Shown in pieces: positions 9,209 to 34,889 of a stretch of 54,359 nt of DNA. Each line of letters starts with the position of its first letter. Positions within the stretch are counted from its first letter, which is position 1. Below the pieces are notes generated by a model, which saw only the letters and a program-made list of their open reading frames with translations, ran no database searches and was not told the DNA's origin. Origin of the DNA: Inquilinus limosus (lineage in GTDB: Bacteria; Pseudomonadota; Alphaproteobacteria; DSM-16000; Inquilinaceae); assembly GCA_019508225.1 (NCBI GenBank), contig JAEKLZ010000157.1:1-54359 (forward strand), in the 5' to 3' direction. A program made the translations under genes and the position numbers.

Positions 9209-10582
9209 TTACGGGCAGGTGGTGATGCCGGTGCTGACCCAGCTGTTCGCCGCGGTCTTGACGGTCGAGGGCAGCGGCGCGAAGGCGGAGTTCCGCGCCA
9301 GGGTGTCGTAGGTGCCGCCTGCGGTGTAGCCCGCGACGAAGGCCTTCAGCGCGGTGACCTTGGCCGCCGAGGCGTAGCAGCCGTAGAGGTTGACCAGCGT
9401 GAAGCCGGCCGCCGGATAGGCGGTCGAGCCGGTCGGGTTGCGCATCGCGGCAGTGTCGGCCGCGGTGCCCCAGGCCGCCTGGGTGTTGGTCGACGGCACG
9501 ATGAAGGAAGCGGTGGCCGCCGTGGTGTAGGTCGGGGCCGGCGGACGGGGGGTGTCACCCGAGATCGGACCGCCATTGTTGTAGTCGAACTGGTTCTGCA
9601 GGTTGGCAGCGACCGGCGCCGGGCTGATCGCCGGGGTGGTCGACTGCTGCGTGTAGTCCGGGCTGACGTAGCCGATCGCGCCGGAGGTCGCGGCGACAGC
9701 CTTCGCGACGCCGTCGCTGCCGGTGGCCGCGGTGAAGGCCGCGGGCCAGGTCACGGTGGTGCCGACGTTGGTGGCGGTCCAGGTGGCCAGGTTGCCGGCG
9801 GCGTGGCTGGTGGTCTTGTCGGCCGTCCCGTTGCACACCGTCGCCAGGTGGCGCGAGAACAGGAAGGTCGTGCCGCTCGAATCCGCGCGGCGATAGACCT
9901 TGATCGGAAGGCTGGAGGTCAGCGCCACGCCGCCGTTGTCGGCGGTCAGGATCGGGTCGTTCCAGTTGGTGATGGCGCCGGTGAAGATGCCGCAATAGGC
10001 GCGGCGCGACAGCCACAGGCCGCTCGACCCGCCGGTCGTCGCCTTGGTGCCGCTCGGGACGGCATGGTTGATGGTGAGGCCGGTGGCGTTGAACGCGATC
10101 GCGACCGGGCTGCCCACGGTCGGGATCTGGATGCCGGCGCCGCGGGTCGGCTGCACGGTGCTGGTGTACTGGCTGACCTGGGCGGCGGTCAGGATCGCGT
10201 CGCTGGCGGCGAAATCGAAGAACGCCGAGCCCGCGCCGTAGCCGTTGGTGCCTTCGGCATAGGCGATGAACGAGCTTTCATAGGGCAGGAGGGCCGGCGT
10301 CGCGTTCGGCGACTGCTGGGCGAGGAACGCGGTCAGGCCCGCGCCGCTGCCCAGGGAGGCGAAGGCGATGCAGTTCGCGCTGGCCGGGTTGCAGCTGGTG
10401 AAGCCCACGCCGGCGAAGTTGTCGAACCAGGAACTGGTGCCGGTTGCGGCGCGATACAGGTTGAACGGCAGGGTGGCGCCGGCGCCGTAGATCGCACCCG
10501 CGGCCGAAGCCGGGGCGGCGTTGATCAGCAGAGCGCCCGCGGCGAGCGCGAGCAGGCTGCAGGTCTTCAGACGGATGGACAA
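9209..10582 (-). CDS. Secreted DING-type (PstS-superfamily) phosphate-binding protein
   Basis: Signal peptide ending in ASA. The mature start AGAIYGAGATLP compares with DINGGGATLP. Also GSGAG, FAASD, YCGIFTGAITNW, RADSSGTT, GYVSPDY and YPAAGFT..LYGCY. TTG start with RBS AGGAAGGAG. Confidence 0.88.
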   Translation of the reverse strand: MSIRLKTCSLLALAAGALLINAAPASAAGAIYGAGATLPFNLYRAATGTSSWFDNFAGVGFTSCNPASANCIAFASLGSGAGLTAFLAQQSPNATPALLPYESSFIAYAEGTNGYGAGSAFFDFAASDAILTAAQVSQYTSTVQPTRGAGIQIPTVGSPVAIAFNATGLTINHAVPSGTKATTGGSSGLWLSRRAYCGIFTGAITNWNDPILTADNGGVALTSSLPIKVYRRADSSGTTFLFSRHLATVCNGTADKTTSHAAGNLATWTATNVGTTVTWPAAFTAATGSDGVAKAVAATSGAIGYVSPDYTQQSTTPAISPAPVAANLQNQFDYNNGGPISGDTPRPPAPTYTTAATASFIVPSTNTQAAWGTAADTAAMRNPTGSTAYPAAGFTLVNLYGCYASAAKVTALKAFVAGYTAGGTYDTLARNSAFAPLPSTVKTAANSWVSTGITTCP

Positions 10583-10907
10583 AGTGTCGTCTCCTTCCTG
10601 ACGTATCGATGAGCCGGTGGCCGCGGGATCGCGGCCACTCGTCCTGGAAAAGGCGTGTCCTATCGACCCGCCTCTTTATTTGACCGCCCTTTCGGAAGAT
10701 CAGCGGATCGTCGTTGCAAGACTCGACCATTCCGATCGCATGATTCCAAATTAACCCTGATGAATCCGTGATCGATTCTTTGAGAATTCGTGACATGAGT
10801 TCTAAGTATTTTTAGATAAATACGTAAATATGGTAACAAGTCTGCGCCGAAAGCAAATGAGTTCCAGGTGACTATTTGCTTCCGAAAGCCATTCCGTGAT
10901 GGCTGGA

Positions 10908-11708
10908 TCAGAGGACGAAGTCGGCGGCGGCGAGAATGCCGACCCCGTGGACTTCGATCTGGAGATCCGCCGTCTTGTCGCCATTCACATCGGCCTGGAC
11001 CAGCACGGTCGACGCATCGACCAGCTCGATGCGCAGCTGGCCGGCATGGCCGCCGAAGGCGTCGGTGCCGATGAAGGCGAACGCCTGGTTGCCGCGGGCG
11101 CCGCTGTCGGCATCGATCGCCGAGAGATCGATCAGGTCGTGATCAGCGGTCGAGAAATCCTGGATGATGTCGGCCGCACTCGGCGTGCTCTGCGAGACGC
11201 CGCCGTACACGAAGGTGTCGCTGCCGGCGCCGCCGGCGAGCTGGTCCTGGCCGGCGCCGCCGGTGATGACGTCGTTGCCGTTGCCGCCGTCGATGAAGTC
11301 GTCGCCGGCGCCGCCATTCAGCGTGTCGTTGCCATTGTCGCCGAACAGTGAGTCACGGCCATCCCCGCCGAGCACCACGTCGTCGCCGCTGTTGGCGAAG
11401 ATGGTGTCGTCGCCGGCGCCGCCATGCAGGACGTCGGTGTCGAGGCCACCGCCGATGGTGTCGTCGCCGACGCCGCCGTCGACAACGTTCAGGCCGTCGC
11501 CGGCGTCGATGGAATCGGCCCCGGCGCCGCCCAGGATGACGTCGTTGCCGTCATTGCCGTAGAGGGCATCGTCGCCGTTGCCGCCGTCGATGATGTCGCT
11601 GCCGGCGCCGCCCTCGATCTGGTCGTTGCCGTCCTGGCCGAAGATGATGTCGGTGTTGTCGGTGCCGGTGATGATGTCATCGCCGGCGGTTCCGTTAATC
11701 AGATTCAT
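10908..11708 (-). CDS. RTX-type Ca2+-binding repeat protein with a serralysin-like C-terminal domain
   Basis: More than 15 GGxGxDx(L/I)x nonapeptides and a C-terminal DIIQDFS..DLIDLSAIDAD...QAFAFIG...ADLQIEV...AADFVL. No Sec signal and no catalytic domain. Confidence 0.9.
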   Translation of the reverse strand: MNLINGTAGDDIITGTDNTDIIFGQDGNDQIEGGAGSDIIDGGNGDDALYGNDGNDVILGGAGADSIDAGDGLNVVDGGVGDDTIGGGLDTDVLHGGAGDDTIFANSGDDVVLGGDGRDSLFGDNGNDTLNGGAGDDFIDGGNGNDVITGGAGQDQLAGGAGSDTFVYGGVSQSTPSAADIIQDFSTADHDLIDLSAIDADSGARGNQAFAFIGTDAFGGHAGQLRIELVDASTVLVQADVNGDKTADLQIEVHGVGILAAADFVL

Positions 11709-11977: not shown

Positions 11978-13849
11978 TCAGGTTCTGCGGAATCTCCGAA
12001 AAATGGTAACTGAAAACATCGAGACCATAATCAGAATTGGGATGGCTGCGAGATTCAGCCAGATCAGCCGCCGCTCGATCGTCTCCACATCCTGGCGCAG
12101 CTGCTGCCTGACCTCGCGCAGCTCCTGGCGGGTGGCGACGATCCTGGTGCGCAGCGCCTCGATCCCCTGGCGCGACGGTTCGGCGCCGCCCTCGGCCCCC
12201 TGCGCCGCCGCCATGTCGCGCTGAAACTGGGCCAGCCGTTCGGTCAGCGCGGTCTCGCTGTCCTGCAGCCGAGCCGCGGCCGCGCGGCCGATCTCGGCGA
12301 TCCGGGTGAAGGGCCGGGCGCCCGCCGCCCGGTTGCGCAGCGCCGACAGGTCCTGCGTCCCCGACAGCTCCTCCAGCAGGGCCAGCAGGAAGTCGCCATT
12401 GGCAGCGAAGGCCCGCGCCGGCTGCCCGGGCTGGCCGCGGGCCACCCAGAAGCGGTCGTCCAGGATGTCGGTGTCGGCGATCGCCACGAGGTCGAGCGCG
12501 TCGGTCTCCAGCTTTCGCCCAGGGGGCGGTGTGCCGTCGACGGCGACGCCGTCCGGCAGCTGGTCGGCGAAGGCGCTGCGGGCATGGCCGGCGACCCGTG
12601 CCGCCAGCACCAGCCGCTCGCTGCCGGACGGGTGCGCGGCCCACAGCTTCTGCGGGTCGGTGCGCGGCACGATCTCGTCGACATCGACCGGGATCCCGTG
12701 GTCGCCGGTGAACAGCAGCGGCGAGAAATGCGTGGTCGCGCCCATCAGCGGCCGCAGGATGCCGGCGGTGCCGACCGTGATCGGCCCCAGCCCAGCGAAG
12801 GCCGGGTCCGCGGCGTCGCGGTTCTTCTCGCCCAGTGTCAGCCACACCAGGTGCTGCAGCTGCAGCGGCCGGCCGTCGTCGCGCCGGACGGTGATGCTGG
12901 AGGCGAGGTCGCGGTCGCCCGCCACCCGGCCGATATCGAGCTGCAGCCCCCAGCTCGGCCCGAACAGGCCGAGGGTGGAGAAGGAGGCGCCGCGCGCCGC
13001 CTGGTCCGGCAGCCGCTCCGCCGCTGCCTCGGACAGCGGGTCGACCAGCACCAGGGCGCGGCCGCCGGCCATCAGGAACTGGTCGATCGCGTATTGCGCA
13101 GCCGGCGGCAGGTCGCGCGGATGCACCAGCAGCAGCACGTCGATCACGGCGGGGTCCAGCGCCGCGGTGCCCTTGGCCGACAGGTCGGCGATCGTGACTG
13201 GCTTGACGTCGAAATCCGCCTGCATGTCGCGATAGGCGGTGAAGGCCGGCAGCACCCGGCCGCCGAAAGCCAGCGCGCCGCCCAGCGGCAAGGTGCTGAC
13301 CACCGCCACCTGGCGCCGGTCCGGTGACGCCAGGCGGGCGATCATGCGGGTCAGCTGCAGGTCGAGGCTCGGCTCTTCCTCAGGCCGCAGAAAGGGAATG
13401 GCGACCCGGTCGGCGGCCGTGCTGCCGACCAAGCCGAAATAGACCGGGTCGCCGCCCTTGGCCAGCGGCAGGCCCAGCAGCCCGTCCTGCACGGCGTGGT
13501 CCTCGGCGTCGCTGAACGGCTCCGGCGTCTCGCGCTGCAGGATCAGCCGGTCGCCGGCGGCGGCGGCATAATCCTCCAGCCGCGCCTCGACCCGGCGGGC
13601 ATAGCCGGCCAAAGCGGGGGAGCTGGCGGCGATCCGGTCGGAGACGACGAAGCGCAGCGTCACCGGCTGGTGTAGATCGTCCAGCACGGCGCGGCTGGCG
13701 GCGTCGAGGGCGTGGCGGCGATCCTCGCTGAGGTCCAGCCGGTATCCGCGCAGGGCGCCGTCGGCCCACAGATTGACGCCGACTGTGGCGGCCAGCGCCA
13801 GGGCCAGGATGGCAAGGCCGGTCAGGCGGTGTCGGAGCGGGCGTCGCAT
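11978..13849 (-). CDS. GldG-family ABC-transporter auxiliary component
   Basis: N-terminal TM, RLDLSED, PEPFSDAED, YFGLVGS, IDQFLMAGGRALVLVDP, ADTDILDDRFW, ANGDF, a coiled coil and a C-terminal TM. An alternative GTG start at 13858 overlaps the permease stop. Confidence 0.88.
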   Translation of the reverse strand: MRRPLRHRLTGLAILALALAATVGVNLWADGALRGYRLDLSEDRRHALDAASRAVLDDLHQPVTLRFVVSDRIAASSPALAGYARRVEARLEDYAAAAGDRLILQRETPEPFSDAEDHAVQDGLLGLPLAKGGDPVYFGLVGSTAADRVAIPFLRPEEEPSLDLQLTRMIARLASPDRRQVAVVSTLPLGGALAFGGRVLPAFTAYRDMQADFDVKPVTIADLSAKGTAALDPAVIDVLLLVHPRDLPPAAQYAIDQFLMAGGRALVLVDPLSEAAAERLPDQAARGASFSTLGLFGPSWGLQLDIGRVAGDRDLASSITVRRDDGRPLQLQHLVWLTLGEKNRDAADPAFAGLGPITVGTAGILRPLMGATTHFSPLLFTGDHGIPVDVDEIVPRTDPQKLWAAHPSGSERLVLAARVAGHARSAFADQLPDGVAVDGTPPPGRKLETDALDLVAIADTDILDDRFWVARGQPGQPARAFAANGDFLLALLEELSGTQDLSALRNRAAGARPFTRIAEIGRAAAARLQDSETALTERLAQFQRDMAAAQGAEGGAEPSRQGIEALRTRIVATRQELREVRQQLRQDVETIERRLIWLNLAAIPILIMVSMFSVTIFRRFRRT

Positions 13850-13854
13850 CGCCG

Positions 13855-14589
13855 TCACCCCGCCCGCCGCAGGCCGAGCACCACCGACGCCGCGAACAGG
13901 AAGAAGGCGATGACGGTGGCGAAGAAGGCGAGGTCGCGCAGGTCGACCACGCCGCGCGCGATCGGCCGGAAATGCGGCAGCACGCCGAACACCGCCAGCG
14001 CGTCGGCGATCCCGGCGGGCAGCCGGTCGCCCAGGAGGCCAGCCAGCGCCGGCGCGCCCGGGATGGTGACGAGGAGGCAGAGGGCGATGCCGAGGATGAA
14101 AGCCACCACCTGGTTGCGGGTCACGGCGCTGGCGGCGGAGGCGACGGCGAGATACAGGCCGGCGACCATCAGGCTGCCGGCATAACCGGCGACGATCACC
14201 CGATGGTCGGGAGTGCCCAGCCAGGCGACGGTCAGCCACATCGGGAAGGTCAGGGCCAGGGCCAAGGCCATCACCGCCCAGCCGGCCGCGAACTTGGCCA
14301 GGACCGCGGCGCCGGGGCCGATCGGCAGGGTGAACAGCAGCTCGGCCGTGCCGCTGCGCGCCTCCTCGGCCCACAGCCGCATGGCGAGGGCGGGGGCCAG
14401 CAGCAGGTACAGCCAGGGCAGGAAGGCGAAGAACGGCTCCAGGTCAGCCTCGCCGCGGCCGAAGAAGTCGCCGGCATAGATCGGCAGCGCCCCGGCCAGG
14501 ACCAGGAAGACGATGACGAAGATGGCGGCGATCGGCGTGGCGAAATAGCCCGCCAGCTCGCGCCGGAACAGGGCGAGGCCGGCGCGCAT
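13855..14589 (-). CDS. GldF-like ABC-2 permease
   Basis: FRRELAGYFATPIA, LAMRLWAEEARSGTAELLFTLPI, TRNQVVAFI, HFRPIARGVVDLRDL. Confidence 0.92.
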   Translation of the reverse strand: MRAGLALFRRELAGYFATPIAAIFVIVFLVLAGALPIYAGDFFGRGEADLEPFFAFLPWLYLLLAPALAMRLWAEEARSGTAELLFTLPIGPGAAVLAKFAAGWAVMALALALTFPMWLTVAWLGTPDHRVIVAGYAGSLMVAGLYLAVASAASAVTRNQVVAFILGIALCLLVTIPGAPALAGLLGDRLPAGIADALAVFGVLPHFRPIARGVVDLRDLAFFATVIAFFLFAASVVLGLRRAG

Positions 14590-14590
14590 C

Positions 14591-15331
14591 TCAGGCGGCC
14601 TCCGCCGGGCGCGGCGCGTCCGGCAGGGTGAGGGCGCGGAACAGCCCGGCCAGGCGGCCGTCGGGCGAGCGCGCGGCGAGCGCCGCCGGGGTGTCGTCGG
14701 CGCGGATCCGGCCGGCGGCCAGGATCACGGCACGGCTGCACATCGCCTCGACCTCCTCCAGCACATGGGTGGAGACCAGGATCGCCTTGTCCCGGCCCAT
14801 CTCGCGGATGGCGTTGTGCATCTGCTGCTTCTGGTTGGGGTCGAGGCCGTCGGTCGGTTCGTCCAGGATCAGGATCGGCGGGTCCGGCAGCAGCGCCGCG
14901 GCCAGGGCGGTGCGCCGCCGATAGCCCTTGGACAGGGTCTCGATCGGCCGGCGCAGCATGGGCCCGAGCTCGACCCGCTCGGCCGCCGCTTCCACCGCCG
15001 CACGGCGGGCCCGGCCGGCCAGCCCGTGCACGCCGGCGACGAAGCTCAGCAGACCAGCCGGCGTCATCTCGGGGTACAGTGGCGCGCCCTCGGGCAGATA
15101 GCCGAGCCGCCGCCGTGCCGCGATCGGCCGCCGCCGGACATCGATGCCGTCCAGCGCGGCGGTGCCGTCATCCGGCTCGAGATAGCCGGCCAGCATGCGC
15201 AGCAGCGTCGACTTGCCGGCGCCGTTCGGGCCGAGCAGGCCGACCACCTCGCCGCGCCCGACTTCGAGCGAGACGTCGGCGACCGCGATCACGGAGCCGA
15301 AGCGGCGATGCAGATGCTCGGCGCGGATCAT
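14591..15331 (-). CDS. GldA-like ABC ATP-binding protein
   Basis: Walker A GPNGAGKS, signature LSKGY, Walker B ILILDEPTDGLDP, H-loop STH. Confidence 0.95.
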   Translation of the reverse strand: MIRAEHLHRRFGSVIAVADVSLEVGRGEVVGLLGPNGAGKSTLLRMLAGYLEPDDGTAALDGIDVRRRPIAARRRLGYLPEGAPLYPEMTPAGLLSFVAGVHGLAGRARRAAVEAAAERVELGPMLRRPIETLSKGYRRRTALAAALLPDPPILILDEPTDGLDPNQKQQMHNAIREMGRDKAILVSTHVLEEVEAMCSRAVILAAGRIRADDTPAALAARSPDGRLAGLFRALTLPDAPRPAEAA

Positions 15332-15340
15332 GCCCGGCGC

Positions 15341-15709
15341 CTAGGCCGCCGCCGGGGCGGCGGTGCTGCCCGGGATGTCGGCGATGGGGCCGAAAGTCTG
15401 CTCGTAGGAGGCCACGGTCTCGGCCAGCTTGCGCGCCAGGTCCTTCATCGTCACCGGGCTCATCGCCAGGCTGACCAGCCATTCCGTGGCCATCGGCTCG
15501 GCGGAGGGCGAGGGGCCGGCCCCGACGACGATGCGGCCGCGGCCGACCAGCAGTTGCGCCTCCGCCGCATTGGCGGTCAGGTGGAACAGCGAGAAGTAGC
15601 GGGTGTCGGGGGAGAAGCGCTCGGCCGCCCCGTTGGCGGCGCCGCTCGCGGTGCCCGGCTGGGTCTGCTGCGTGGTCATGATCGTCTCCATCGGTTCCGT
15701 TCGGGTCAC
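15341..15709 (-). CDS. Small cytoplasmic protein, DUF3467-like
   Basis: ATGA-coupled to the PPIase gene. The C-terminal pattern LAMSPVTMKDLARKLAETVASYEQTFGPI is DUF3467-like. No signal peptide. Confidence 0.6.
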   Translation of the reverse strand: MTRTEPMETIMTTQQTQPGTASGAANGAAERFSPDTRYFSLFHLTANAAEAQLLVGRGRIVVGAGPSPSAEPMATEWLVSLAMSPVTMKDLARKLAETVASYEQTFGPIADIPGSTAAPAAA

Positions 15710-16626
15710 TGGGTCGGGGCGGCGGGGGCCGCCGGCGCCAGTCGGGACAGGACCTCCGCCACCGCGATCTCGTTGATGGCCGGCGGGGCTGCGCCGACCA
15801 GGCCTTCGACGTATCGGCGCCGCAGATCCGCCGTCTGTTGCCGCCGCAGCGCCTCGACCAGCAGCGGCCGGACCTCGTCGAAGTCCTGCACCCGCGACTC
15901 CTTGCGGTCGATCAGGCGAAGCAGGTGCCAGCCGGCCTGACTGCGGATCGGTGCGCTGACGGCGCCCTTGTCCAGCCCGGCCACCGCCTGGCGGATCTCG
16001 GGCACCAACTGGTCCTCGGACACCCAGCCCATGTCGCCGCCACTATCAGCGCTGTCCCTGTGCTGCGAGAATTGCCGCGCCAGGGCGGCGAAATCGGCGC
16101 CGCGGGCCCGGGCCTTCCGGCGCAGGTCGCCGATCTGGTCCTCCGCCGCCGCGGCCGCCTCCGCCGAGGCGCCCTGCGGCACCGGCAGGAAGATCTGGGC
16201 CAGGCGCACCTGCGCCGACGCCACGAAACGGGCGGTGTTGTCGTCATAGATCCTGCGCAGGTCGGTCTCCGGCGGCTCCGCAGCCGGCGGCTCTGACCTG
16301 GCGGCGAGCCAGGTCTCGACGATCACCTGCTGCCGCGCCTGATCGATCATCGCCGCCACCTCGGGCCGGTCGGCCCAGTTGGCCTTGGCCGCCTCGGCGA
16401 CGACGGCGCGGCGCGTCAGCTCGGCTCGGATCAGCCCGTCCAGCGCCTCGCGGCTGGTCACCGCCTGGGCCCGGATCTCGGGCGAGAGGCCGCGCAGGAA
16501 GGTCTCGATCTCGGACGGCGACAGGCCGATCGCACCCATCCGGGCGACCGGCTCGGGCTGCTGCGCCATCGCGGCCGGCGCGACGCCGAGCGCGAGCAGC
16601 GTGGCAAGGACCGGGAGGTGCCTCAC
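15706..16626 (-). CDS. Periplasmic parvulin (PpiC-type) peptidyl-prolyl isomerase
   Basis: Signal peptide; VRLAQIFL...FAALARQFS...SADSGGDMGWV...GAVSAPIRSQAGWHLLRL. Confidence 0.92.
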   Translation of the reverse strand: MRHLPVLATLLALGVAPAAMAQQPEPVARMGAIGLSPSEIETFLRGLSPEIRAQAVTSREALDGLIRAELTRRAVVAEAAKANWADRPEVAAMIDQARQQVIVETWLAARSEPPAAEPPETDLRRIYDDNTARFVASAQVRLAQIFLPVPQGASAEAAAAAEDQIGDLRRKARARGADFAALARQFSQHRDSADSGGDMGWVSEDQLVPEIRQAVAGLDKGAVSAPIRSQAGWHLLRLIDRKESRVQDFDEVRPLLVEALRRQQTADLRRRYVEGLVGAAPPAINEIAVAEVLSRLAPAAPAAPTQ

Positions 16627-17282: not shown

Positions 17283-17295
17283 GTCGTTCCCTCCG

Positions 17296-19643: not shown

Positions 19644-19652
19644 CGGCCGGGC

Positions 19653-20060: not shown

Positions 20061-20069
20061 GACGGATCC

Positions 20070-23956: not shown

Positions 23957-23974
23957 TTGTCATCCTTTTGTCAT
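23957..23974 (+). promoter_or_regulatory. Pho-box-like direct repeat
   Basis: TTGTCAT-cctt-TTGTCAT with 11-bp period, in the AT-rich region upstream of the TpsB operon; orientation is opposite to the operon. Confidence 0.5.
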
Positions 23975-27100: not shown

Positions 27101-30100
27101 GCGGCCCTGCATCAGGGCGTGCAGGTCCAGATCCGCGTCCAGCGTCATGTCGCCGGCGCTGCGCAGCTCGACGCCCGCCCGGGCGGTGACGCCGGGACCG
27201 AAACGATCCCTGATCGTGCCGGCCACGTTCTTCGCGGCGAAATCATCGAGATCGACCTGGATGATCGAGCCGTCGACCACCGGGGTGTCGTAGGCCTTGT
27301 ACGCCTCGACCGTGATCTCCCGGGCGCCGCCGATGCCGCTGCCGATCTCGGTGATCGCGACATCGCTGTCGCCGTTGGTGCGCGGCGCGCGGAGATGCAC
27401 GGTGCCGGTGGCGCCGCCGGCACCGACCGAGATGGCCGAGCCGGACTGCAGGTCGAGCCGGCCGCCGTCGCCGGCCGCCAGCAGCACCGAGCCGCCCTTG
27501 CCGGCTGTGTCGGCCGCGGTGCCGGAGGCGTTCAGCACCGCCCCGTTCGCCAGGGTCAGGGTCCTGCCCGCCGCCAGGCGGATGTCGCCACCGGCGGCGC
27601 CGCCGGCATTGATCGTGCCGCCGATGGTGAGATTGCCGCTGTCGGCCGACAGCACGAAGTCGCGGGTGGTGACGGTATGGCCGGCGCTGAGCGAGACGTC
27701 GCCGCTTCGGATGCGCAGCCGCTGCGCCTCGGCGAAGCCGGCCACGGCCAGCTTGCCGGCCAGCGTGTCGAAGCCGCCGTCGAGCCGGCCGAGGTCGAGA
27801 TCGACCTGGCCATGGCGGGTGCCGGTCGCCGAGCGCGCGTCGATCGTGCCGTCGGCGATGAACCGGCCATGCGCCGCGTCGACGATGAGGCGTCCGGCAT
27901 CGCCGCCCGGGCCGCCGCCGATGGCGATGGTGCCGCCGCCCGCCAGGACGACGTCGCCCTGGGCCGAGGACAGCTTGACCACGCCGCCGGGGGCGTAGCG
28001 GGTCTGGTCGTAGAAGTGGCGCTCGACGCCGGCGGCATCGACCGTGGCGTTGCCGGCGATCTCGAGATTGCGGATTGCCGACGCCTCCAGGATGCCGGCG
28101 CGGACCTCCAGCAGCCCGGCGAGGGCTATGGTGTCGCCGGACAGGCGCAGCCGGCCGCCGATATCATCGAACTCCGGCAGGTTGGGGACGGTCCGCCCGG
28201 TGAAGGCCAGGGCGCCGCCGGCCTCGATGGCGTTGTCCGATCCGGCGCCGGCCGACAGCGCGGCGGCGGTCAGGGTCAGCGCCCCATCCGCCCGCAGGCG
28301 GTTGGGGCGGGTGTCGCCGCCGCTGCCCGGGGAGGCGTTGGTCGCGGTGTCGAGGCCGCTGGTGCCGACGATCCGCTCATCGGCCGCGAGCGTCGTCGCA
28401 CCGAAGCCGGCGATGCGGACCGGGCCGTCCGCCAAGTCGATCCGGCCGGTGCCTTCGACCGGCTTGCCGCTGTCCATCCGCGTCGTGGCGTTGATGGTCA
28501 GGCTGCCGCCGGCCATGTCGACCGGCAGGCCGCTGGCATTGCCGGTGTTGCGCAGCTGCACCGCACCGGCATTGATCGTGGCGTTGCCGCCATGGCCGAC
28601 CAGCAGCGGGCTGTCCAGCGACAGTGTCCGCAGCGACGTTCCCTGGCCGGCGCCGATGCTGACGTCGCCGTAGAAGTCGATGCTGTTGTAGCCGCGCAGG
28701 GTCAGGGTCTCGGTCTGCGCCAGCACGCCCAGCGTGCCGTCGCGGAACACCAGGCCGCCCGTGCCCGTCGGGGCGTCGCCGAAGCTGATCTGCTTGGCGG
28801 CGGCATCGATGGCGCGGTCGCCGCGAATCCGGGTGGAGGCCAGGAGACTGTCGCCGGTGGCGTCGAGCGCCAGGCTGCCCGAGGCCAGCACCGCCGCGCC
28901 GTCCTGGATCGTCAGCGACCCGTCGAAGCCGAGGAAGCCGGTGCGCACCACATCGACCCGGTCGCCGGTCGATACGCGCAGCAGCGCGCTGTCGCCGCTG
29001 ATGCGCAGCGTGCCGGCCGGGCCGGCATCGGCCCCCGTGGCGCGGACGACGCTGCCCGACTCGACCGTCAGCGTATTGCCGGCGGCCAGCAGGATCTCCG
29101 GCCCCTCCAGCGCCGTGCCCGGGTTGCGGATCACGACGTTGCTGGCCACGACCTGGACCTGAGTGCCGCCGCGCGGATCGTCCGACGTGACCTGGGCCGG
29201 GCTGCGCTCACCGCCGATGAACAGGCTGCCGACGCCGAAATCGTTCAGCTGTCCGGCCTGCAGCAGCAGATAGCCCTGATCCGTCAGGTCCTGGGTGTCG
29301 GCGCCCTCGGACACCACCGCGATCTTGGCGGTGGCGATGTCGAACCGGCCCAGCTGTCCGCCTTCGGCCGGCGTGAACTTGGCGGTGCCGTCCAGCCGCA
29401 GCGTCTCGGCGGCGTTGGCCACCAGCGTGCCGCCGTCGAGCGTCAGGACCGGCACGGGAATGACCCCGGTATCGGTCTTCTGGCGCTCCAGGAACGCCTC
29501 GGACCGGAAGAAGCTGTTGGCCGCGTAGTTGTCATACTGCGCGCGCTGGCGCAGCACCGCGCCGGATTCGACCTGGAAGCCGCTCCAGCGCGAATCGGAG
29601 ATCGAGGTGTTGAGGACGGAGCGGCGGCCGGCGACATAGCCGCTGCCGTCGGGCGCCCGGCCGTTCATCGCCGGCAGCCTGTCGAGGACGCCGTTGACGG
29701 CCCGCACCCGGTAGGCGCCGGGCATCAGCGCATAGCGCGCGGGCAGCAGCACATAGGTGCCGGCCGGCAGGCCGCCGCCGCCCGACAGATAGACCCGGTC
29801 GCCCACCCGCAGATTCGTGTTGGCGCCCTGGTTCAAGGCCTGGCGCGACGCGAAGGCCGTGGACGGGACGACCGGGACGTCCTGGTCGAAGTGGATGTCG
29901 CCGGCCTGGACGGTGGCTTGATAGCCCGAATAGTAGGGGTCCCAGGGGGCATAGCCGTCATAGTCCGGGATCACGGCGAAGCTGTTGGGGTCGGCCAGGA
30001 CGTCGGACGGTCCGCCCAGCCCCGCCACAAACTCGTTGGCCAGCAGCTCGCCGCCGCCGCTGACATCGATCACGGCCCCGTCCCGGACGTCCACATCGGT

Positions 30101-33100
30101 GCCGCGCAGCCGCACCTCCTTGGTCGGGGCGCCCGCAATCGACTGGCCGCCATTGCCGGGATTGAACCACAGCGAGCCGTTCTGGACATAGCCGTAGGGC
30201 ACCGTCAGCCCCTTGGCGGACACCGAGGTCACGCTGCCCCGGCCGAGGGTCACCGCGCTGAGGCCGCTGTCGAGCCCCAGGACGATCCGGCCCAGGGGCG
30301 CGCGGATGGTGCCGTTCTGGACGATCGTCGGCGCGGCGATGGTCAGGATGCCGCCGATCGACAGCGGCATCGCGGCCTTGCCGTTCGGCTGCACCGTGAC
30401 CTTGCCCAGGGCGTTGACGGTGAAATTCTGGTCGGTGTCGGGGTAGATCTGCGCCGCCTGGAGCATCAGGTTGCCGGCCGTGCTCAGCGTGCCGAGATTG
30501 CTGCCCGCGACGCCCGCGAAGCGGATGTCGCCCCGGCTCTGGAGACGGACCGTCCCGAAGCCGCCGAAGAGGCGGTCCTTGTAGATGCCCTCGCCGGTCT
30601 CCGGATCGGAATCGACCTGCATGTGGTAGAGGCTGCCGAAGCGGAACGTGCCGCCATTGATGTCGATCAGGTCCGCCAGGATCGAGAGCTGGGTCGCCGG
30701 GCTGAGGATGCGGTCGCCGAGCGCGAGTGCCTGCCAGTCCAGCGCGCTGCCCGTCCGTTCGAAGCTGGTGTTGGTCAGCGCCACCCGCGGCGCCTGCAGC
30801 ACCACCCTGGCGCCGGTCCGTCCCCGCGCCGGCGTGGCGCCGATCGCGTAGGCCGCGATCTGGATCTCGCGGCCCAGCTTCACCGTGACGTCGCCGTTGA
30901 AATTGACGATGTTGTCGGAGCCCATCACCCAGGTGTCGAAGCCCCCGCCCATCACATTGTCCGCGGCGACGTAGCCCTGGCCAGCATGGCGCAGCAGCGT
31001 GTCCGGGTCGTAGCCATCCTTCGCGCCGGCGGAAAGACCGGACTGCCGGATGTTGAGCACCCGCACCAGATCGGGCGGCAGGCCGATCCTGTTGTTCCCG
31101 TTCCGCGTTCCCTGCCGCATCTCCGTGATCAGCGTGCCGCCCTCGGCCCCCACGCCGCCGCCGCGCCCCAGCAGGGTGCCGTCGAGATACAGCCCGTCAC
31201 TGGCGGTCAGCCGGATCGTGCCGCCGTTGCTGGCGACGGTCCGCGACCGCAGCTTCAGCCCGTACATGGTCATGCTGCGCAGGTCGAGCCGGGTCGAGGC
31301 GCCGGACACGTCGAGCACCGCGCCGCGCTCGACGGCCACGGCGCCGTTATAGGCGTTCAGCGTGATGGTGCCGCCATCCAGCACCGTGCCGCGGCGGGTC
31401 CCGTCCGTCGTCGGGTCCAGCCTGACCGCGCCGCGGGCCAGCAGCCGGCCGGTGGCGCCGATGCGGACGCCGGCTTCCGGGTCATAGACCGCCAGCGGGG
31501 TCTGCAATCCCGTGTCCGGGTCGGTGAGGAGTTCCGTGTCGACGGTGACACCGCCCAGCAGCGTGATCTGCCCGGCCGGGGTGTCGATGGTGCCGTCCAC
31601 CCGCACCGTGCGCGCCGCCACCGCGGTGACCGAGCCGCCCATTCCCATGCGCACAACCGAACCCCGGCCGAACACGACGCTGCCGCCGCCCTCATAGGAC
31701 CGGCCGTTGTCGTCCACCCCGTCGACACCGTGATCGTCCGCCCGCAGGTCGCTGCCGCGCGCGATCAGGGTCAGCGACCCGGCCGGCCGCAGCTCCTCCG
31801 GCAGCACGTCCAGGCTGGCGAAGCCGAACACGTCGCCGCCGCCGGCGCGCCGCAGATAGTCGGGGTTCAGGCGCAGGGTCGGCGCCGCCGGTGTCACCAC
31901 CGCGCCCGGCGCCACGGTCACGCCGCGATAGCCCTGCAGCGTCACGTCGCTGAAGCCGCCGCGGCTCAGGAAACCAGGATCCAGCACCAATGCCCCGTCC
32001 GGCGCCAGCCCGCCGCCGATCCAGATCCGGTCGGTGCGGATGGTCAGCTTGCCGCCGCGGTCGAGGCCGTAGCCGAGGATGTCTCCGCCCAGCACCAGCT
32101 TGCCGGCGCTGGGCCGGATCGCCGTGCTCTGGTCGATGAAGCGGCTGGTGGCCAGCCGCACCTCGCCACCATTGCCCTTGGTCAGGGACCCGTCGGCGGC
32201 GACCCAGCCGCCCGCAGAGACGTCGATCAGGCTGCCGCGCGCGATCCTCAGGGTCTTCAGCGCGCTCAGGTCGATCGTGCCGCCGTCGGGCAGGGCGGCG
32301 CCCACCGGACCCGTTCCGCCCGGAGACGGGTTGCCGTTCGCGTCGACCCGGTCGTTCACCCACTGTCCGCGCGCAGTCAGCCGTGCGCCCGCGGCCAGGG
32401 TGACGTCCCGGGCGGCCAGGGTGATGGTGCCCGACGGCGTCTCGATCGCGCCGGCAATGGTGATGGCGCCGAACTGATCGAGAATTCCCTCCGCGTCGTA
32501 CAGATTGGGGGGCGCGACCTCCGGCCTGGACCGCAGGTCGACCGACCCGCCCGGGGCGGTGCGCAGGGTCACGCCGCGCGCCACCGCGATGTCGCCGCCC
32601 GCGGTCGTCACCGCGATCTCGTCCACCCCGCCGTTGCCGACGAGCGACGGGGCGATCACCAGCCGGTTGCGCAGGTTGTCCGGCAGTGCATCGCCGGATC
32701 CGAACCCTTCCGCCAGCCCCGACCCGCGGGCGCCGAAGGTGACGTCGACCGGCCGCCGCAGGGTCAAGGTCAGGCTGCCCAGCCCCGGCAGCTGGTCGCG
32801 CGACCGCTGCCGTGCCCCCGGCGTGGTCCCGCCGCTGATCCGGCCGTCGAGCACAGCGGCGCCCGTGCCGATGCTGACCGCGCCGGCGGCCATACCGTCG
32901 GTATAGCCGGCTTCCCAGCGCGGACCGTAGATCTGCTGCTGCGCGTAACGGTCCTCGGCGAAGGCGACGTACTGGATATCCGGCGTCGCCTGGCTGATGT
33001 CGTAGACCCGGCCGTCGGCCCCGACCAGCTGGGTGGTGTCGAGCCAGCCGCCGCGATATCGCACCTGGCCGCCGGAGACATTGATCGCGGCACCGTCGCG

Positions 33101-34780
33101 GATCACCACCTCACCGGACTCGGCGGTCTTGGACGAGATCGACACCGTGCCGCCGACGGCGCTGCGCTCCACCGCCGTGCGGCCGATGCTCTTGAGATAA
33201 TCGCCGATGCTGCCGATCGGCGATCCGTCGCGGACATCGACATTGACCGTCTTGCCGAACAGGAAGCCGTCGCGCTGCAGCGGCGAGTTCAGCTCGTTGT
33301 TGCGCAGCTTGATCGCGATCTGGTTGCGCTCCATCGCCACCTCGGTCGAGGTGGTGCCGGACACGTCGATCAGGCTGCCATTCTCCATGGTGAAACGGTT
33401 CGGCGAGCCGTCGAACGGCGCCTCCACGATCTGGACCGTGACGTCGCCCGCCGGGGCCTGGATCTTCGACCCCCGCTCCATGGTCCCGGCGCCGGCGACG
33501 ACCTGGACCCTGGAATGCTCGAACTGCTCGGCATCGGTGATGGTGTCGGTGCCGTCCTCCGGCAGGATGGTCGTCGCGCTGCCGCGGCCGAAGGTGATCC
33601 TGCCGGGGCTATTCCGCTGAAACAGTATGTTGCTTTGGTCGTAGCTGGGGTCTGCGGCGGCCTTGAGCAGGATCGAGCCGCCGGCCCGGACCGCGGTGGT
33701 CGCCGAAAGCCGGCCGTTCTGTGCGATCAGCAGACTGGAAATCGAAATATTGCCGCCGCGCGGCGTGTCGATCGTTCCGGTGTTCACCACCCAGTTGGCG
33801 GTCGGCGAGTCACGGTCGGTCACGGAATCGACCTCGATCGCGACCCCGCGCGGATACTTCTGGTCCGACGGCGTCGCGACCGAGTTTGCCGGATAGATGT
33901 AGATCCTGCGACCGGCGCCGATCACCACCTGTCCGGCCGGGGCGCGGATCGTGCCGGCATTCACCACCGACCCGCCCAGCAGCATGACGCTGCTGTTGTC
34001 CGGGCCCTGGATCAGGGCGCCGCGCTCGACCTTGATCTGGCCGGGCTCGCCGTCGCCATCGGCCGTGAACACCGGGAGGAACTTGCCGCCGGCATCCTTC
34101 GGAGTGTCCAGAAGACCGCGGTTGAACTGGTCCTCGCTGATGCTCAGCGACGACGCCACCAGATTGCGGACATTGACCCGGGCGCCGTTGCCGAAGATGA
34201 CGCCGTTCTGGTTGATCAGATAGACATGGCCGTCGGCCTTCAGCGCGCCATCGATGCGCGACGGGTCGGCCTGGCCGATGCGGTTCAGCACCGCCCAGTC
34301 CCGGTTGCCCTTCTGGTCGAACCGTACCGTCTCGTCGCCGGCGATGTTGAACCGGTTCCAGTCGATGACCGCCTTCGGCTTCAACTGCTCGATGGTCATC
34401 AGCTTGTTGGTCGCGTCCACCACCGGATTGTTGGCGGACGCGTTCTGGATCCGGTTCAGGCTCATGCCGCTGAACAGGACCTTCGGCGCGCCGGCCGAGG
34501 CAGCGCGGGACAGGGCCCTATCGACCGCGCTGTTGCCGCCGCCGCCATTGCCGCCGCCACTCGAGCTCGAGGTGGCGCTGTCGCCGCGCACCAGCCGCAT
34601 GCCGACGATCTTGGTGCTGTCGGCCCGCGCCGGCTCGGACATGGCGCCGAAGGCCGCCAGCCCGGCGAGCAGGGCAACTGCGCTGCAGCTCAGCCGCAGC
34701 CGCCGCGGCAGCAGGCCGGGAGTCGATGGGGCGGTGGCGAGACGATGGGACGGGCGAGTCGGGACGCCAATGCCGGCCAT
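24170..34780 (-). CDS. Giant filamentous-haemagglutinin-family TpsA exoprotein (3536 aa) with DUF3739-type C-terminus
   Basis: Signal peptide ending in ARA, TPS domain (IDWNRFNI...VLNRI...GHVYLINQNGVIFG), long beta-helix-type repeats, LPAGTYVLLPARYAL, and C-terminal GDILMWSSFGDIDAG...GSGIG...VDLYAPNGVINAGEGGIRVSGN. Confidence 0.93.
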   Translation of the reverse strand: MAGIGVPTRPSHRLATAPSTPGLLPRRLRLSCSAVALLAGLAAFGAMSEPARADSTKIVGMRLVRGDSATSSSSGGGNGGGGNSAVDRALSRAASAGAPKVLFSGMSLNRIQNASANNPVVDATNKLMTIEQLKPKAVIDWNRFNIAGDETVRFDQKGNRDWAVLNRIGQADPSRIDGALKADGHVYLINQNGVIFGNGARVNVRNLVASSLSISEDQFNRGLLDTPKDAGGKFLPVFTADGDGEPGQIKVERGALIQGPDNSSVMLLGGSVVNAGTIRAPAGQVVIGAGRRIYIYPANSVATPSDQKYPRGVAIEVDSVTDRDSPTANWVVNTGTIDTPRGGNISISSLLIAQNGRLSATTAVRAGGSILLKAAADPSYDQSNILFQRNSPGRITFGRGSATTILPEDGTDTITDAEQFEHSRVQVVAGAGTMERGSKIQAPAGDVTVQIVEAPFDGSPNRFTMENGSLIDVSGTTSTEVAMERNQIAIKLRNNELNSPLQRDGFLFGKTVNVDVRDGSPIGSIGDYLKSIGRTAVERSAVGGTVSISSKTAESGEVVIRDGAAINVSGGQVRYRGGWLDTTQLVGADGRVYDISQATPDIQYVAFAEDRYAQQQIYGPRWEAGYTDGMAAGAVSIGTGAAVLDGRISGGTTPGARQRSRDQLPGLGSLTLTLRRPVDVTFGARGSGLAEGFGSGDALPDNLRNRLVIAPSLVGNGGVDEIAVTTAGGDIAVARGVTLRTAPGGSVDLRSRPEVAPPNLYDAEGILDQFGAITIAGAIETPSGTITLAARDVTLAAGARLTARGQWVNDRVDANGNPSPGGTGPVGAALPDGGTIDLSALKTLRIARGSLIDVSAGGWVAADGSLTKGNGGEVRLATSRFIDQSTAIRPSAGKLVLGGDILGYGLDRGGKLTIRTDRIWIGGGLAPDGALVLDPGFLSRGGFSDVTLQGYRGVTVAPGAVVTPAAPTLRLNPDYLRRAGGGDVFGFASLDVLPEELRPAGSLTLIARGSDLRADDHGVDGVDDNGRSYEGGGSVVFGRGSVVRMGMGGSVTAVAARTVRVDGTIDTPAGQITLLGGVTVDTELLTDPDTGLQTPLAVYDPEAGVRIGATGRLLARGAVRLDPTTDGTRRGTVLDGGTITLNAYNGAVAVERGAVLDVSGASTRLDLRSMTMYGLKLRSRTVASNGGTIRLTASDGLYLDGTLLGRGGGVGAEGGTLITEMRQGTRNGNNRIGLPPDLVRVLNIRQSGLSAGAKDGYDPDTLLRHAGQGYVAADNVMGGGFDTWVMGSDNIVNFNGDVTVKLGREIQIAAYAIGATPARGRTGARVVLQAPRVALTNTSFERTGSALDWQALALGDRILSPATQLSILADLIDINGGTFRFGSLYHMQVDSDPETGEGIYKDRLFGGFGTVRLQSRGDIRFAGVAGSNLGTLSTAGNLMLQAAQIYPDTDQNFTVNALGKVTVQPNGKAAMPLSIGGILTIAAPTIVQNGTIRAPLGRIVLGLDSGLSAVTLGRGSVTSVSAKGLTVPYGYVQNGSLWFNPGNGGQSIAGAPTKEVRLRGTDVDVRDGAVIDVSGGGELLANEFVAGLGGPSDVLADPNSFAVIPDYDGYAPWDPYYSGYQATVQAGDIHFDQDVPVVPSTAFASRQALNQGANTNLRVGDRVYLSGGGGLPAGTYVLLPARYALMPGAYRVRAVNGVLDRLPAMNGRAPDGSGYVAGRRSVLNTSISDSRWSGFQVESGAVLRQRAQYDNYAANSFFRSEAFLERQKTDTGVIPVPVLTLDGGTLVANAAETLRLDGTAKFTPAEGGQLGRFDIATAKIAVVSEGADTQDLTDQGYLLLQAGQLNDFGVGSLFIGGERSPAQVTSDDPRGGTQVQVVASNVVIRNPGTALEGPEILLAAGNTLTVESGSVVRATGADAGPAGTLRISGDSALLRVSTGDRVDVVRTGFLGFDGSLTIQDGAAVLASGSLALDATGDSLLASTRIRGDRAIDAAAKQISFGDAPTGTGGLVFRDGTLGVLAQTETLTLRGYNSIDFYGDVSIGAGQGTSLRTLSLDSPLLVGHGGNATINAGAVQLRNTGNASGLPVDMAGGSLTINATTRMDSGKPVEGTGRIDLADGPVRIAGFGATTLAADERIVGTSGLDTATNASPGSGGDTRPNRLRADGALTLTAAALSAGAGSDNAIEAGGALAFTGRTVPNLPEFDDIGGRLRLSGDTIALAGLLEVRAGILEASAIRNLEIAGNATVDAAGVERHFYDQTRYAPGGVVKLSSAQGDVVLAGGGTIAIGGGPGGDAGRLIVDAAHGRFIADGTIDARSATGTRHGQVDLDLGRLDGGFDTLAGKLAVAGFAEAQRLRIRSGDVSLSAGHTVTTRDFVLSADSGNLTIGGTINAGGAAGGDIRLAAGRTLTLANGAVLNASGTAADTAGKGGSVLLAAGDGGRLDLQSGSAISVGAGGATGTVHLRAPRTNGDSDVAITEIGSGIGGAREITVEAYKAYDTPVVDGSIIQVDLDDFAAKNVAGTIRDRFGPGVTARAGVELRSAGDMTLDADLDLHALMQGRDGASGVLTLRAGGDLTFLGSLSDGFTTVDGNQLAGGDSWSYRLVAGADLSGADPLALLSAADLAAGKGSVIVDSVTANRALRIRTGIGDIDIAAAGDFVLGARSDTNLGPDFFTPIPQAVVYTAGRPIMDVPGGLLDPARYPDAAFPTGGGDIGIDARGSLYGVPSAQLITDYVWRQGDANGDKGLATAWWIDFAGFQQGVGALAGGNVSLRAGDQIRNLSAAIPTVGWVSGGSVNVRNGGSLTVDALGDIVSGVYYVGRGDAAIESGGAIKGGASVTITDSNFNQGTYAPRTILAGGDTAFKLRSRGDLTIETVADPMMLPTSMRQDPDLSDDGASTGGFFSRGARSAVSLDSIGGDIRFGNDGNAVAAMALGSPLQGQSAAQYALIYPSTVRAVSFGGDILVDGGMILAGADRGTLELLSENDVLFRANGDPTAPRPATIGFVSMADALPQFEPTPLSPVSITRSIGTPASEEDQFAKAYFATLGAPDQAGRHVGDLDPARIYAVDGDIRGAVPTGAYQLIVPKSLRLRAGSDVADLSIRATNTNPGDVTLVQAGRDIDLTTNGGLEPDLSAQIKVGGPGRLEVGAGRNIDLGYGAGILTDGNLRTSVLPDQGADITVLAGLGSGQTDRIAFMTRYLDPAHYAELDPYLAGPGGSLYTAQMISYVQAVTGRSGLDAATAFALLKALAPEQQDPLLQDILFGELRASGREANDASSPRFGATDRGYAAADTLFPGDGWSGDITMRGSQIKTERGGDLSILLPGGGIQLGVATSEVGAPRKDANDSGLWTVLGGAIRVFAHDDILIRSSRALTASGGDILMWSSFGDIDAGLGSRAAISTAPAVVRLSLNGTLQVEPGGIVSGSGIGALQEPGDVDLYAPNGVINAGEGGIRVSGNFNVFALQVLNADNIQVGGQAVGLPTAPVNPASIAGTSDVAAQATRAIEQQVRDQAERGAKPNDEAPPLLITGSFLGYEGG

Positions 34781-34871
34781 CTGGGCTGCTCCGGGCTTTA
34801 AAATGGATATTCGGCGCGCGTTATCCTTCCTGTCCTACCGGGGACGCCGCGTGTCCTGCCATCCCGGGCCG

Positions 34872-34889
34872 GTGAAATTTTCGTGACGC
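34872..34889 (-). promoter_or_regulatory. Pho-box-like direct repeat upstream of the giant TpsA gene
   Basis: Minus strand GCGTCAC-gaaa-ATTTCAC (11-bp period), ~90 bp upstream of the start and in the sense orientation. Confidence 0.45.

What the first reader, a model, noticed from the sequence alone, without database searches (positions are those of the whole stretch)
9209..34889. Candidate multi-component envelope machine: TPS pair + lectin-fused ExbBD-TonB motor + porin + PPIase + Gld-type ABC, ending in RTX and DING genes
Seen: fourteen co-oriented genes over ~26 kb. The eleven genes from the TpsB to gldG have gaps of at most ~20 bp or 4-bp overlaps, so they form one operon. There is no TonB-dependent receptor, no T2SS and no pstCAB. 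Known: classical two-partner secretion needs only TpsA and TpsB and no energy transducer. A similar core (PdtA/PdtB, exbB2/exbD2, TonB-like, porin, PPIase, nearby DING-type LapA) forms the phosphate-starvation sigma-VreI regulon of Pseudomonas aeruginosa, where it sits next to the Hxc T2SS; to my knowledge its mechanism is largely unresolved. Inference: this is an alphaproteobacterial variant in which a GldAFG ABC module occupies the locus instead of Hxc. It may be a proton-motive-force-energised export/assembly or phosphate-scavenging surface apparatus that has not been described as a unit.
Basis: partly seen in the sequence, partly recalled or inferred. Interest (0 to 1): 0.85.

Follow-up and report, generated by a model that had tools for sequence, protein, structure and literature searches.

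The report
Phosphate-starvation fibre, motor and binder island
This 14-gene island joins a giant secreted surface fibre, a proton-driven motor, a stalked outer-membrane pore and a phosphate-binding-type protein; its core matches a widespread cluster that is described but unexplained in Pseudomonas aeruginosa, and it likely works as a surface phosphate-capture device, with the Gld-type ABC genes a local add-on of one genus.

Summary
Observation confirmed: 14 minus-strand genes, 11 of them tightly coupled, in an Inquilinus genome. The interpretation needs correcting. The conserved unit is TpsA(DUF3739)-TpsB-ExbB(DUF2341-LamG)-ExbD-TonB-Porin_5-coiled coil plus a Cys-rich PstS/DING-fold exoprotein. 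That exoprotein is a core part, not a tail-end extra: present in 32 of 36 extended beta/gamma/delta loci and 6 of 10 other alphaproteobacterial loci, and found in no porin-negative genome searched. GldAFG, RTX and a small ORF occur at the locus only in Inquilinus (1 of 99 surveyed loci, itself Inquilinus); 14 of 18 other carriers lack GldG altogether, and this genome has a complete T2SS elsewhere, so GldAFG does not replace Hxc. The porin models as a plugless 16-strand barrel with a periplasmic stalk (closest OmpM1), too small for folded-protein export. Pho-box-like sites precede tpsA and tpsB. The core equals the P. aeruginosa pdtA-pdtB-exbB2D2-tonB4-PA0696/97 cluster, published as function unknown; this scan met it four times before on other DNA. 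Best reading (0.4): motor-assisted surface phosphate capture. New variant of a known kind.

The parts
34872..34889 (-). Pho-box-like 11-bp-period repeat upstream of tpsA (predicted PhoB site)
   Evidence: among the top 29 sites of the genome on a recalled-consensus score; 0 of 200 shuffles reach it; conserved in 4 of 4 aligned Inquilinus copies
24170..34780 (-). tpsA: 3536-aa PdtA-like TpsA fibre; signal peptide, TPS domain, long beta-helix, C-terminal DUF3739
   Evidence: Pfam TPS E 1e-22, DUF3739 E 1.7e-31; model of last 640 aa pLDDT 84, beta-solenoid with helical insertion; no enzyme or toxin domain in four Pfam slices
24173..24214 (-). conserved short hydrophobic strand motif at the unstructured extreme C-terminus of TpsA (candidate partner-binding tail; divergent in Inquilinus)
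   Evidence: family pattern in 48 of 68 complete C-termini vs 0.4% of upstream windows; low pLDDT tail after a linker
23957..23974 (+). Pho-box-like site upstream of tpsB, in reverse orientation to the gene
   Evidence: tied best score genome-wide; both half-sites kept in 5 of 5 Inquilinus copies; 5 of 7 high-scoring sites in foreign loci are also reversed
22068..23702 (-). tpsB: Omp85 transporter (longest ORF starts at 23804)
   Evidence: POTRA_2 and ShlB; start
20070..22049 (-). exbB with signal peptide and periplasmic DUF2341 + LamG domains
   Evidence: three TM helices and the conserved channel motifs
19653..20060 (-). exbD with the conserved TM aspartate
18912..19643 (-). tonB-like: TM anchor, Pro-rich linker, TonB_C
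   Evidence: TonB_C E 3.8e-8, TIGR01352 over cut-off
17296..18915 (-). Porin_5 protein: predicted plugless 16-strand barrel with N-terminal periplasmic helical stalk
   Evidence: PF16930 E 1e-176; model pLDDT 87.7; best fold match OmpM1, Z 26.4, rmsd 3.0, 306 aligned, Foldseek E 4e-15
16623..17282 (-). exported coiled-coil protein (PA0697-like position), core gene
   Evidence: 84 of 99 loci; conserved C-terminal block; no family
15706..16626 (-). exported PpiC-type PPIase, optional
   Evidence: Rotamase; 11 of 99 loci
15341..15709 (-). 122-aa ORF, DUF3467-like by a weak lead; Inquilinus-only at this locus
   Evidence: Atlas score 0.88, lead only; 87-97% identical in six relatives
14591..15331 (-). 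GldA-like ABC ATPase
   Evidence: TIGR03522 best hit but below cut-off; Walker A/B and His motif present
13855..14589 (-). GldF-like ABC-2 permease
   Evidence: TIGR03518 below cut-off; six TM segments
11978..13858 (-). GldG-like two-TM auxiliary protein; no DUF4340 partner in the genome
11964..11981 (-). weaker Pho-box-like site upstream of the RTX gene (doubtful)
   Evidence: top 79 genome-wide but 17 of 200 shuffles reach it and it is kept only in the closest relative
10908..11708 (-). RTX-repeat-only protein with serralysin-like C-terminus, no signal peptide and no catalytic domain; likely T1SS substrate
   Evidence: T1SS elsewhere
9209..10582 (-). DING-like phosphate-binding-fold exoprotein with signal peptide; core subunit
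   Evidence: best PDB hit PfluDING E 2e-23; eight phosphate-binding positions and four cysteines placed by alignment or motif
9126..9156 (-). intrinsic-terminator-like hairpin closing the island
   Evidence: 13-pair stem plus T run; consensus match only

Best explanation
The island encodes a conserved envelope module (giant TpsA fibre, TpsB, ExbBD-TonB motor, stalked porin, coiled-coil protein, PstS/DING-fold exoprotein) that is likely switched on by PhoB and likely captures phosphate at the cell surface. Shown here: gene content, conservation, the exoprotein's core status and binding-site residues, intact motor motifs. Predicted: the porin's fold, the Pho boxes. Inferred and untested: TpsB secretes TpsA, which stays anchored with its C-terminal tail in the periplasm; the DING-like protein leaves by Sec and the separately encoded T2SS and docks on the fibre or porin like a hemophore; TonB, driven by ExbBD, pulls on the TpsA tail or the porin stalk to unload phosphate through the porin to periplasmic PstS. 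GldAFG, the small ORF and the RTX gene are Inquilinus recruits not needed by the core.
For: Core conserved: ExbB 87, ExbD 87, coiled coil 84, TpsA 74 of 99 porin loci, many misses at contig ends; tpsB in 33 of 36 loci extended upstream. Phosphate-binder: 32 of 36 extended loci (16 training, 16 new), profile hits PstS structures E 2e-9 and the DING-like alignment at 96.4% probability; this family in 2 of 401 genomes, both at the porin locus; the DING-like family in 3 of 201, all porin-positive; absent from 4 of 4 Inquilinus genomes tested that lack the core; second copy between tpsA and tpsB in 3 of 4 relatives. Pho-like sites; 7 of 30 foreign upstream regions vs 0.5 expected. In P. aeruginosa the pdtA and phdA promoters need PhoB (PMC4971064 passages), PdtA and PA0696 are among the most induced proteins in low phosphate (PMC9769906 passages), and PstS/DING sit on surface appendages (PMC3949141, PMC2242829 passages).
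Against: No physical interaction was tested. A general-size porin passes phosphate without a motor, so the need for energy is unexplained. 3 of 14 unbiased carriers (G290, G306, G351) showed no DING-like gene at the locus and 3 more were undecidable. 23 of 30 foreign upstream regions had no strong Pho-like site, and the site before the window's DING gene scored at chance (126 of 200 shuffles). The motor genes are missing beside the porin in G362, L058 and L132. The Inquilinus TpsA tail does not fit the TonB-box-like pattern, and that pattern found only 1 of 4 control TBDTs. PMC3949141 says a scavenging role of bacterial DING proteins lacks direct support. Loci are related and some recur between samples, so counts are not independent events.
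Confidence: 0.4

Rival explanations
1. Energised biogenesis machine (closest to the first reader): the motor, coiled coil, porin stalk and PPIase help secrete, fold, anchor or release the very large TpsA and display the DING-like and PEP-CTERM proteins; no uptake role.
For: TpsA is 3500-5100 aa; PPIase, DsbC-like, CAAX and PEP-CTERM genes recur nearby (PEP-CTERM-like tails in 19 of 99 loci, and 15 of 36 upstream stretches); conserved disordered TpsA tail.
Against: Type V secretion is described as needing no gradient (PMC5422565 passages); the 16-strand plugless barrel is too small for folded cargo (inference); LapA/DING is exported by a T2SS in P. aeruginosa and this genome has one; exosortase is in only 4 of 14 carriers against 83 of 401 overall, none in G000.
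Confidence: 0.25
2. Motor-driven adhesin for attachment, aggregation or surface movement under phosphate limitation, working like Agl-Glt or the T9SS gliding track; the binder sticks the fibre to phosphate minerals.
For: Motor + TonB-like + coiled coil + barrel + giant adhesin anatomy; duplicated exbD in several loci and EPS/XrtA genes nearby in 13 of 95 loci; GldAFG-like genes here.
Against: The likeness to gliding systems is recalled, not tested; Gld hits are below equivalog cut-offs; GldAFG is absent from most carriers.
Confidence: 0.17
3. Surface sensor: fibre and binder detect an outside ligand and signal through TonB-like proteins to a VreA/FecR/ECF cascade.
For: FecR-like genes in 8 of 95 loci plus L131, L133, L151, L155, G485; VreA lacks a barrel and its inducing signal is unknown.
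Against: No VreA/VreI-like match in G000; most loci lack the cascade.
Confidence: 0.08
4. Outer-membrane tether or remodelling device (OmpM1/Tol-like) used when phospholipids are replaced during phosphate starvation; TPS and DING genes are co-regulated passengers.
For: Porin closest to the tether OmpM1; ExbB/ExbD score best against TolQ/TolR models, below cut-off.
Against: TpsA, TpsB and the binder travel with the porin almost everywhere; patchy, plasmid-borne distribution (14 of 400 genomes; 12 near-full-length plasmid or chromid records); a shared fold shows no function.
Confidence: 0.1

Closest known systems
P. aeruginosa PAO1 pdtA (PA0690), phdA-pdtB-exbB2-exbD2-tonB4-PA0696-PA0701, with lapA and hxc (PUMA3/sigma-VreI, PhoB regulon)
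   Same: Same families in the same order (TpsB, ExbB, ExbD, TonB, porin, PA0697-like, PPIase), separate promoters before tpsA and the tpsB operon, DING-type neighbour, Pho-like boxes. Published as uncharacterised (PMC7035377); its conservation in several genera including R. palustris was noted in PMC2729926.
   Different: No phdA, YbjN, LysR, vreAIR or adjacent hxc; adds gldAFG without DUF4340, a DUF3467-like ORF and an RTX-repeat gene; DING lies downstream or is duplicated. PAO1 sequences were not fetched: homology rests on family order and on loci with the PAO1 layout (G099, G245, L133) that the window's proteins hit.
HxuABC of Haemophilus (TpsA captures a binding protein and feeds a TonB-dependent transporter)
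   Same: TPS fibre coupled to TonB-driven nutrient capture (PMC5422565 passage).
   Different: Here the barrel is a plugless 16-strand porin, not a TBDT; the motor is dedicated and the binding protein is self-made.
OmpM1 of Veillonella parvula
   Same: 16-strand barrel with N-terminal periplasmic stalk (Z 26.4).
   Different: No SLH domain found; 17% identity; tied to a motor and TPS pair.
DING proteins (PfluDING, LapA, HPBP)
   Same: Phosphate-binding residues, disulfide cysteines, signal peptide.
   Different: No DINGGG N-terminus; longer, with extra cysteines; beta/gamma/delta loci carry a more distant subfamily.
GldAFG ABC module (Flavobacterium; common proteobacterial gldAFG-DUF4340)
   Same: ATPase, ABC-2 permease, GldG-type auxiliary protein.
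   Different: Below the Gld equivalog cut-offs; lacks the DUF4340 gene that adjoins 4 of 4 copies in three relatives; fused to the porin operon only in Inquilinus.

Membership tests
Two-partner secretion (type Vb) | TpsA with signal peptide, TPS domain and beta-helix | tested here: met
Two-partner secretion (type Vb) | Adjacent Omp85 TpsB with POTRA | tested here: met
Two-partner secretion (type Vb) | TpsB-dependent secretion of TpsA | not testable with these tools
   needs mutants
PdtAB-exbB2D2-tonB4-PA0696/97 cluster | Same core families in the same order | tested here: met
PdtAB-exbB2D2-tonB4-PA0696/97 cluster | Direct sequence homology to the PAO1 proteins | not tested
   PAO1 sequences not fetched; indirect through G099, G245, L133
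PdtAB-exbB2D2-tonB4-PA0696/97 cluster | Pho boxes before tpsA and the tpsB operon | tested here: met
   motif recalled, binding not shown
PUMA3 (vreAIR) regulon | Linked VreA, VreI, VreR | tested here: not met
   no VreA-like or VreI-like tblastn hit in G000 at E 1e-6; one unrelated-locus FecR hit; genome 93.8% complete
TonB-ExbB-ExbD motor | ExbB channel motifs, ExbD TM Asp, anchored TonB_C | tested here: met
   residue roles recalled
TonB-dependent transporter uptake | 22-strand barrel with plug domain | tested here: not met
   model shows 16 long strands and a helical N-terminus; no Plug or TBDT Pfam hit
TonB-dependent transporter uptake | TonB box on the energised partner | tested here: inconclusive
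   recalled pattern in 18 of 68 TpsA tails vs 2.9% background, not in the Inquilinus tail, and in only 1 of 4 control TBDTs
DING proteins | Eight phosphate-binding residues | tested here: met
   T37, L38, S79, D128, R232, S236, G237, T238 (S79 by motif only)
DING proteins | Four cysteines for two disulfides | tested here: met
   C197, C250, C402 aligned, C456 by position
DING proteins | DINGGG N-terminal signature | tested here: not met
   hence filed as DING-like
Bacteroidota GldAFG gliding module | Scores over TIGR03522/03518/03521 cut-offs | tested here: not met
   230/403, 162/289, 44/390 bits
Proteobacterial gldAFG-DUF4340 module | Adjacent DUF4340 gene | tested here: not met
   none in G000 or G007; adjacent in 4 of 4 copies in G014, G028, G030
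Dedicated PEP-CTERM export system | Co-occurrence with exosortase | tested here: not met
   4 of 14 carriers vs 83 of 401 overall; none in G000
Agl-Glt or T9SS motility machinery | Homology to Glt/Spr/GldLM components | not tested
   recalled analogy only

The most novel reading that the evidence does not exclude
A distinct class of TonB-powered nutrient uptake without a TonB-dependent receptor: a secreted 'phosphatophore' (DING/PstS fold) is caught on a giant TPS fibre and unloaded by a dedicated motor acting on the fibre's periplasmic tail or a stalked porin, across at least two phyla. This would give a function to DING proteins and to PA0693-PA0697 at once, and be the first energised two-partner system.
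Probability: 0.25. Interest if true: 0.88.

Novelty: new variant of a known kind. Interest (0 to 1): 0.55.

Why it matters
The P. aeruginosa copy is induced in phosphate starvation and infection, yet its motor and porin genes are still listed as unknown, and the role of bacterial DING proteins is open. Showing that a phosphate-binding-fold exoprotein is a near-obligate and apparently exclusive partner of the module turns both questions into one testable model, with two named candidate TonB targets.

Tried and rejected
GldAFG as Hxc replacement or general component: rejected. Dedicated PEP-CTERM exporter: rejected at genome level. Porin as TBDT or protein channel: rejected on the model. Expression: no RNA holder listed, no evidence either way. 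RNA elements, including the c-di-GMP riboswitch noted in an earlier finding: only three sub-threshold matches inside the RTX repeats. TpsA C-terminal model: no PDB match at E 0.001, weak beta-helix rows only; not evidence of a new fold. Porin sequence profile against PDB: only a weak OmpM1 hit. Coiled-coil protein in the Atlas: unnamed clusters only. Porin tree: quick tree of 33 of 54 intended rows; the Inquilinus pair is a long branch with weak placement, no donor can be named. L027's 'DING' hit is a classical PstS and the PstS genes in L174 and L179 were not counted as the binder. The beta/gamma binder profile did not hit the window's DING directly; the link is profile-profile. Literature searches found no paper giving a mechanism for the motor/porin genes or describing the binder as a core part; the library is open-access only. 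PMC8929069 and PMC12382080 passages held nothing relevant.
Full report
Observation. The 14 genes and their spacings are as reported. Porin homologues at 88-96% identity are named Inquilinus. Porin_5 is in 7 of 41 relatives searched, including G000 and 6 of 12 same-genus genomes. All six carry the same order as far as their contigs reach; three of the four with the tpsA-tpsB interval have a second DING-like gene there, one of them interrupted by a stop. GldG over cut-off is in exactly these seven Inquilinus genomes and in 14 porin-negative relatives, and the DING-like gene is missing from 4 of 4 core-less Inquilinus genomes tested: within the genus the stretch is gained or lost as one island, which is one event, not seven.

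How wide is the unit. Full-length Porin_5 is in 14 of 400 Pseudomonadota besides G000, 5 of 400 alphaproteobacteria in a second draw, one of them partial, 80 further loci from beta-, gamma- and deltaproteobacteria (best 80 of 434, biased towards Thiobacillus-like genomes), 28 metagenome loci and 15 plasmid or chromid records. In 99 loci (15 + 80 + 4) the window's proteins found ExbB 87, ExbD 87, coiled coil 84, TpsA 74, PPIase 11, and GldG, GldF, RTX and the small ORF once each, in the Inquilinus record L018. TpsB (24 of 99) was mostly beyond the 10-kb flank: 33 of 36 loci extended upstream have it (of 38 searched, one with a short upstream contig and one already complete were dropped). In ten non-Inquilinus alphaproteobacterial loci GldAFG is present 0 times and a DING-like gene 6 times. 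GldG is absent from 14 of 18 other carriers and far from the locus in the other four. Ordinary gldAFG modules have a DUF4340 neighbour in 4 of 4 copies in three relatives; G000 and G007 have none. G000 has a T2SS, a T1SS, the pst-pho cluster and five TBDT matches elsewhere. GldAFG is therefore a genus-level recruit and not a stand-in for Hxc.

The binder is core. The window's protein is closest to PfluDING (E 2e-23), with the eight phosphate-binding positions listed in PMC7922408 and four cysteines, but without the DINGGG start. A match to it lies within 25 kb of the porin in 9 of 18 other carriers; four of the remaining nine have the locus on a short contig or near a contig end. In the 36 extended loci a Cys-rich exported protein, mostly directly before tpsB, was found in 32 (16 used to train the profile, 16 new). 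Its alignment A5 hits PstS structures (E 2e-9), Pfam PBP_like_2 in 5 of 19 members and the DING-like alignment A6 (96.4%). A5 matched 2 of 401 genomes, both at the porin locus (one is in the alignment); A6 matched 3 of 201 at E 1e-30, G000 and two porin-positive genomes.

Regulation. On a recalled Pho-box consensus the site at 23957 ties for best in the 5.9-Mb genome, that at 34889 is in the top 29, that at 11981 in the top 79, and the pstS control in the top 192. The first two are conserved in relatives and beat 200 of 200 shuffles; the RTX site is weak and the DING upstream region scores at chance. Seven of 30 foreign upstream regions hold a strong site against 0.5 expected, five reversed like the window's tpsB site (starts were estimated). 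No vreAIR-like set was found in G000, so direct PhoB control is the inference.

Anatomy. ExbB and ExbD keep the channel motifs and the aspartate; ExbB has a signal peptide and periplasmic DUF2341-LamG domains, described as of unknown role in PMC12505986. The porin model (pLDDT 87.7) has three N-terminal helices, a conserved short strand and a 16-strand barrel without plug, closest to OmpM1. The TpsA C-terminal model is a beta-solenoid through DUF3739, then a low-confidence linker, helix and tail. The tail carries a conserved strand motif in 48 of 68 complete C-termini; a TonB-box-like pattern fits 18 of 68 against 2.9% background, but not the Inquilinus tail, and found only 1 of 4 control TBDTs: a lead only. 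A periplasmic C-terminus has precedent in FhaB (title of a reference listed in PMC5422565; paper not read).

Other neighbours. PEP-CTERM, CAAX, EPS/XrtA, ankyrin, PhoX, phytase-like, T2SS and ECF/FecR genes recur by lineage, several of them phosphate-scavenging types. Exosortase is in 83 of 401 genomes and 4 of 14 carriers, not in G000, so the module is neither needed nor specific for PEP-CTERM proteins. One member of that sample, G364, is unpublished; it adds one to the 83 and to the negative tallies, and no other claim rests on it.

What is known. Papers were read as keyword passages: PMC7035377 (exbB2-exbD2-tonB4 uncharacterised, PA0696-PA0700 unknown), PMC4971064 (promoters, PhoB binding; passages and section 21), PMC2729926 (conserved neighbourhood; single mutants as virulent as wild type in zebrafish; its figure S5 seen as legend only), PMC5422565, PMC9769906, PMC3949141, PMC2242829 (Hxc-dependent surface PstS, 20-nm appendages), PMC7922408. 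The original PdtAB paper was not read. Nine searches found no mechanism in print in this open-access library.

Verdict. A real island; a new variant of a known but unexplained cluster that this scan has met four times on other DNA. Best reading: motor-assisted surface phosphate capture (0.4), ahead of energised fibre biogenesis (0.25), adhesion or movement (0.17), envelope tether (0.10) and sensing (0.08). No interaction or expression was shown. Interest 0.55.

Noticed in passing
window 23740-23870 (- strand, before tpsB): An AT-rich non-coding stretch of about 130 nt is far more conserved across five Inquilinus copies than its surroundings, including a separate conserved block about 70 nt downstream of the Pho-like site; likely promoter plus a second regulator site; no Rfam match.
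   Followed up: partly
window 10757-10794 (- strand, before the DING-like gene): Conserved footprint with repeated TCA units in six Inquilinus copies that does not score as a standard Pho box.
   Followed up: partly
L012:15021-16466 (G007): The extra DING-like copy between tpsA and tpsB carries an in-frame TAG; DING copies diverge much faster (42-95%) than the core genes.
   Followed up: no
L133 (NZ_CP084804.1) 1-25304: A complete vreAIR-pdtA-pdtB-exbBD-tonB-porin-YbjN-PPIase-LysR cluster on a conjugative Klebsiella quasipneumoniae plasmid beside IS elements and an arsenic-resistance operon; shows the module is mobile.
   Followed up: partly
L021-L097, between porin and coiled-coil genes: An ankyrin-repeat protein is inserted in or near 37 of 95 loci, mainly betaproteobacterial; several Rhodocyclales-type loci have two exbD genes.
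   Followed up: no
G362, L058, L132: Motor-less arrangements: tpsB or the TPS pair next to the porin without adjacent exbBD-tonB.
   Followed up: no
window 35734-39546 (+) and 49086-52748 (+): Ordinary neighbours: molybdopterin oxidoreductase subunits and a malonate decarboxylase cluster; a winged-helix STAND/TPR regulator at 40342-43179.
   Followed up: no
window 31-8896: S24-type repressor-like gene, glyoxalase, DEAD-box helicase, a decayed-looking phosphotransferase frame, and an ArsR-MFS pair flank the island; the ArsR-MFS and TetR flanks were not found beside the island in relatives.
   Followed up: no
G000 C511:26000-35900 and C78:14190-20854: The other two secretin loci look like a type III secretion cluster and a Tad pilus cluster (read from translations, not scanned).
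   Followed up: no
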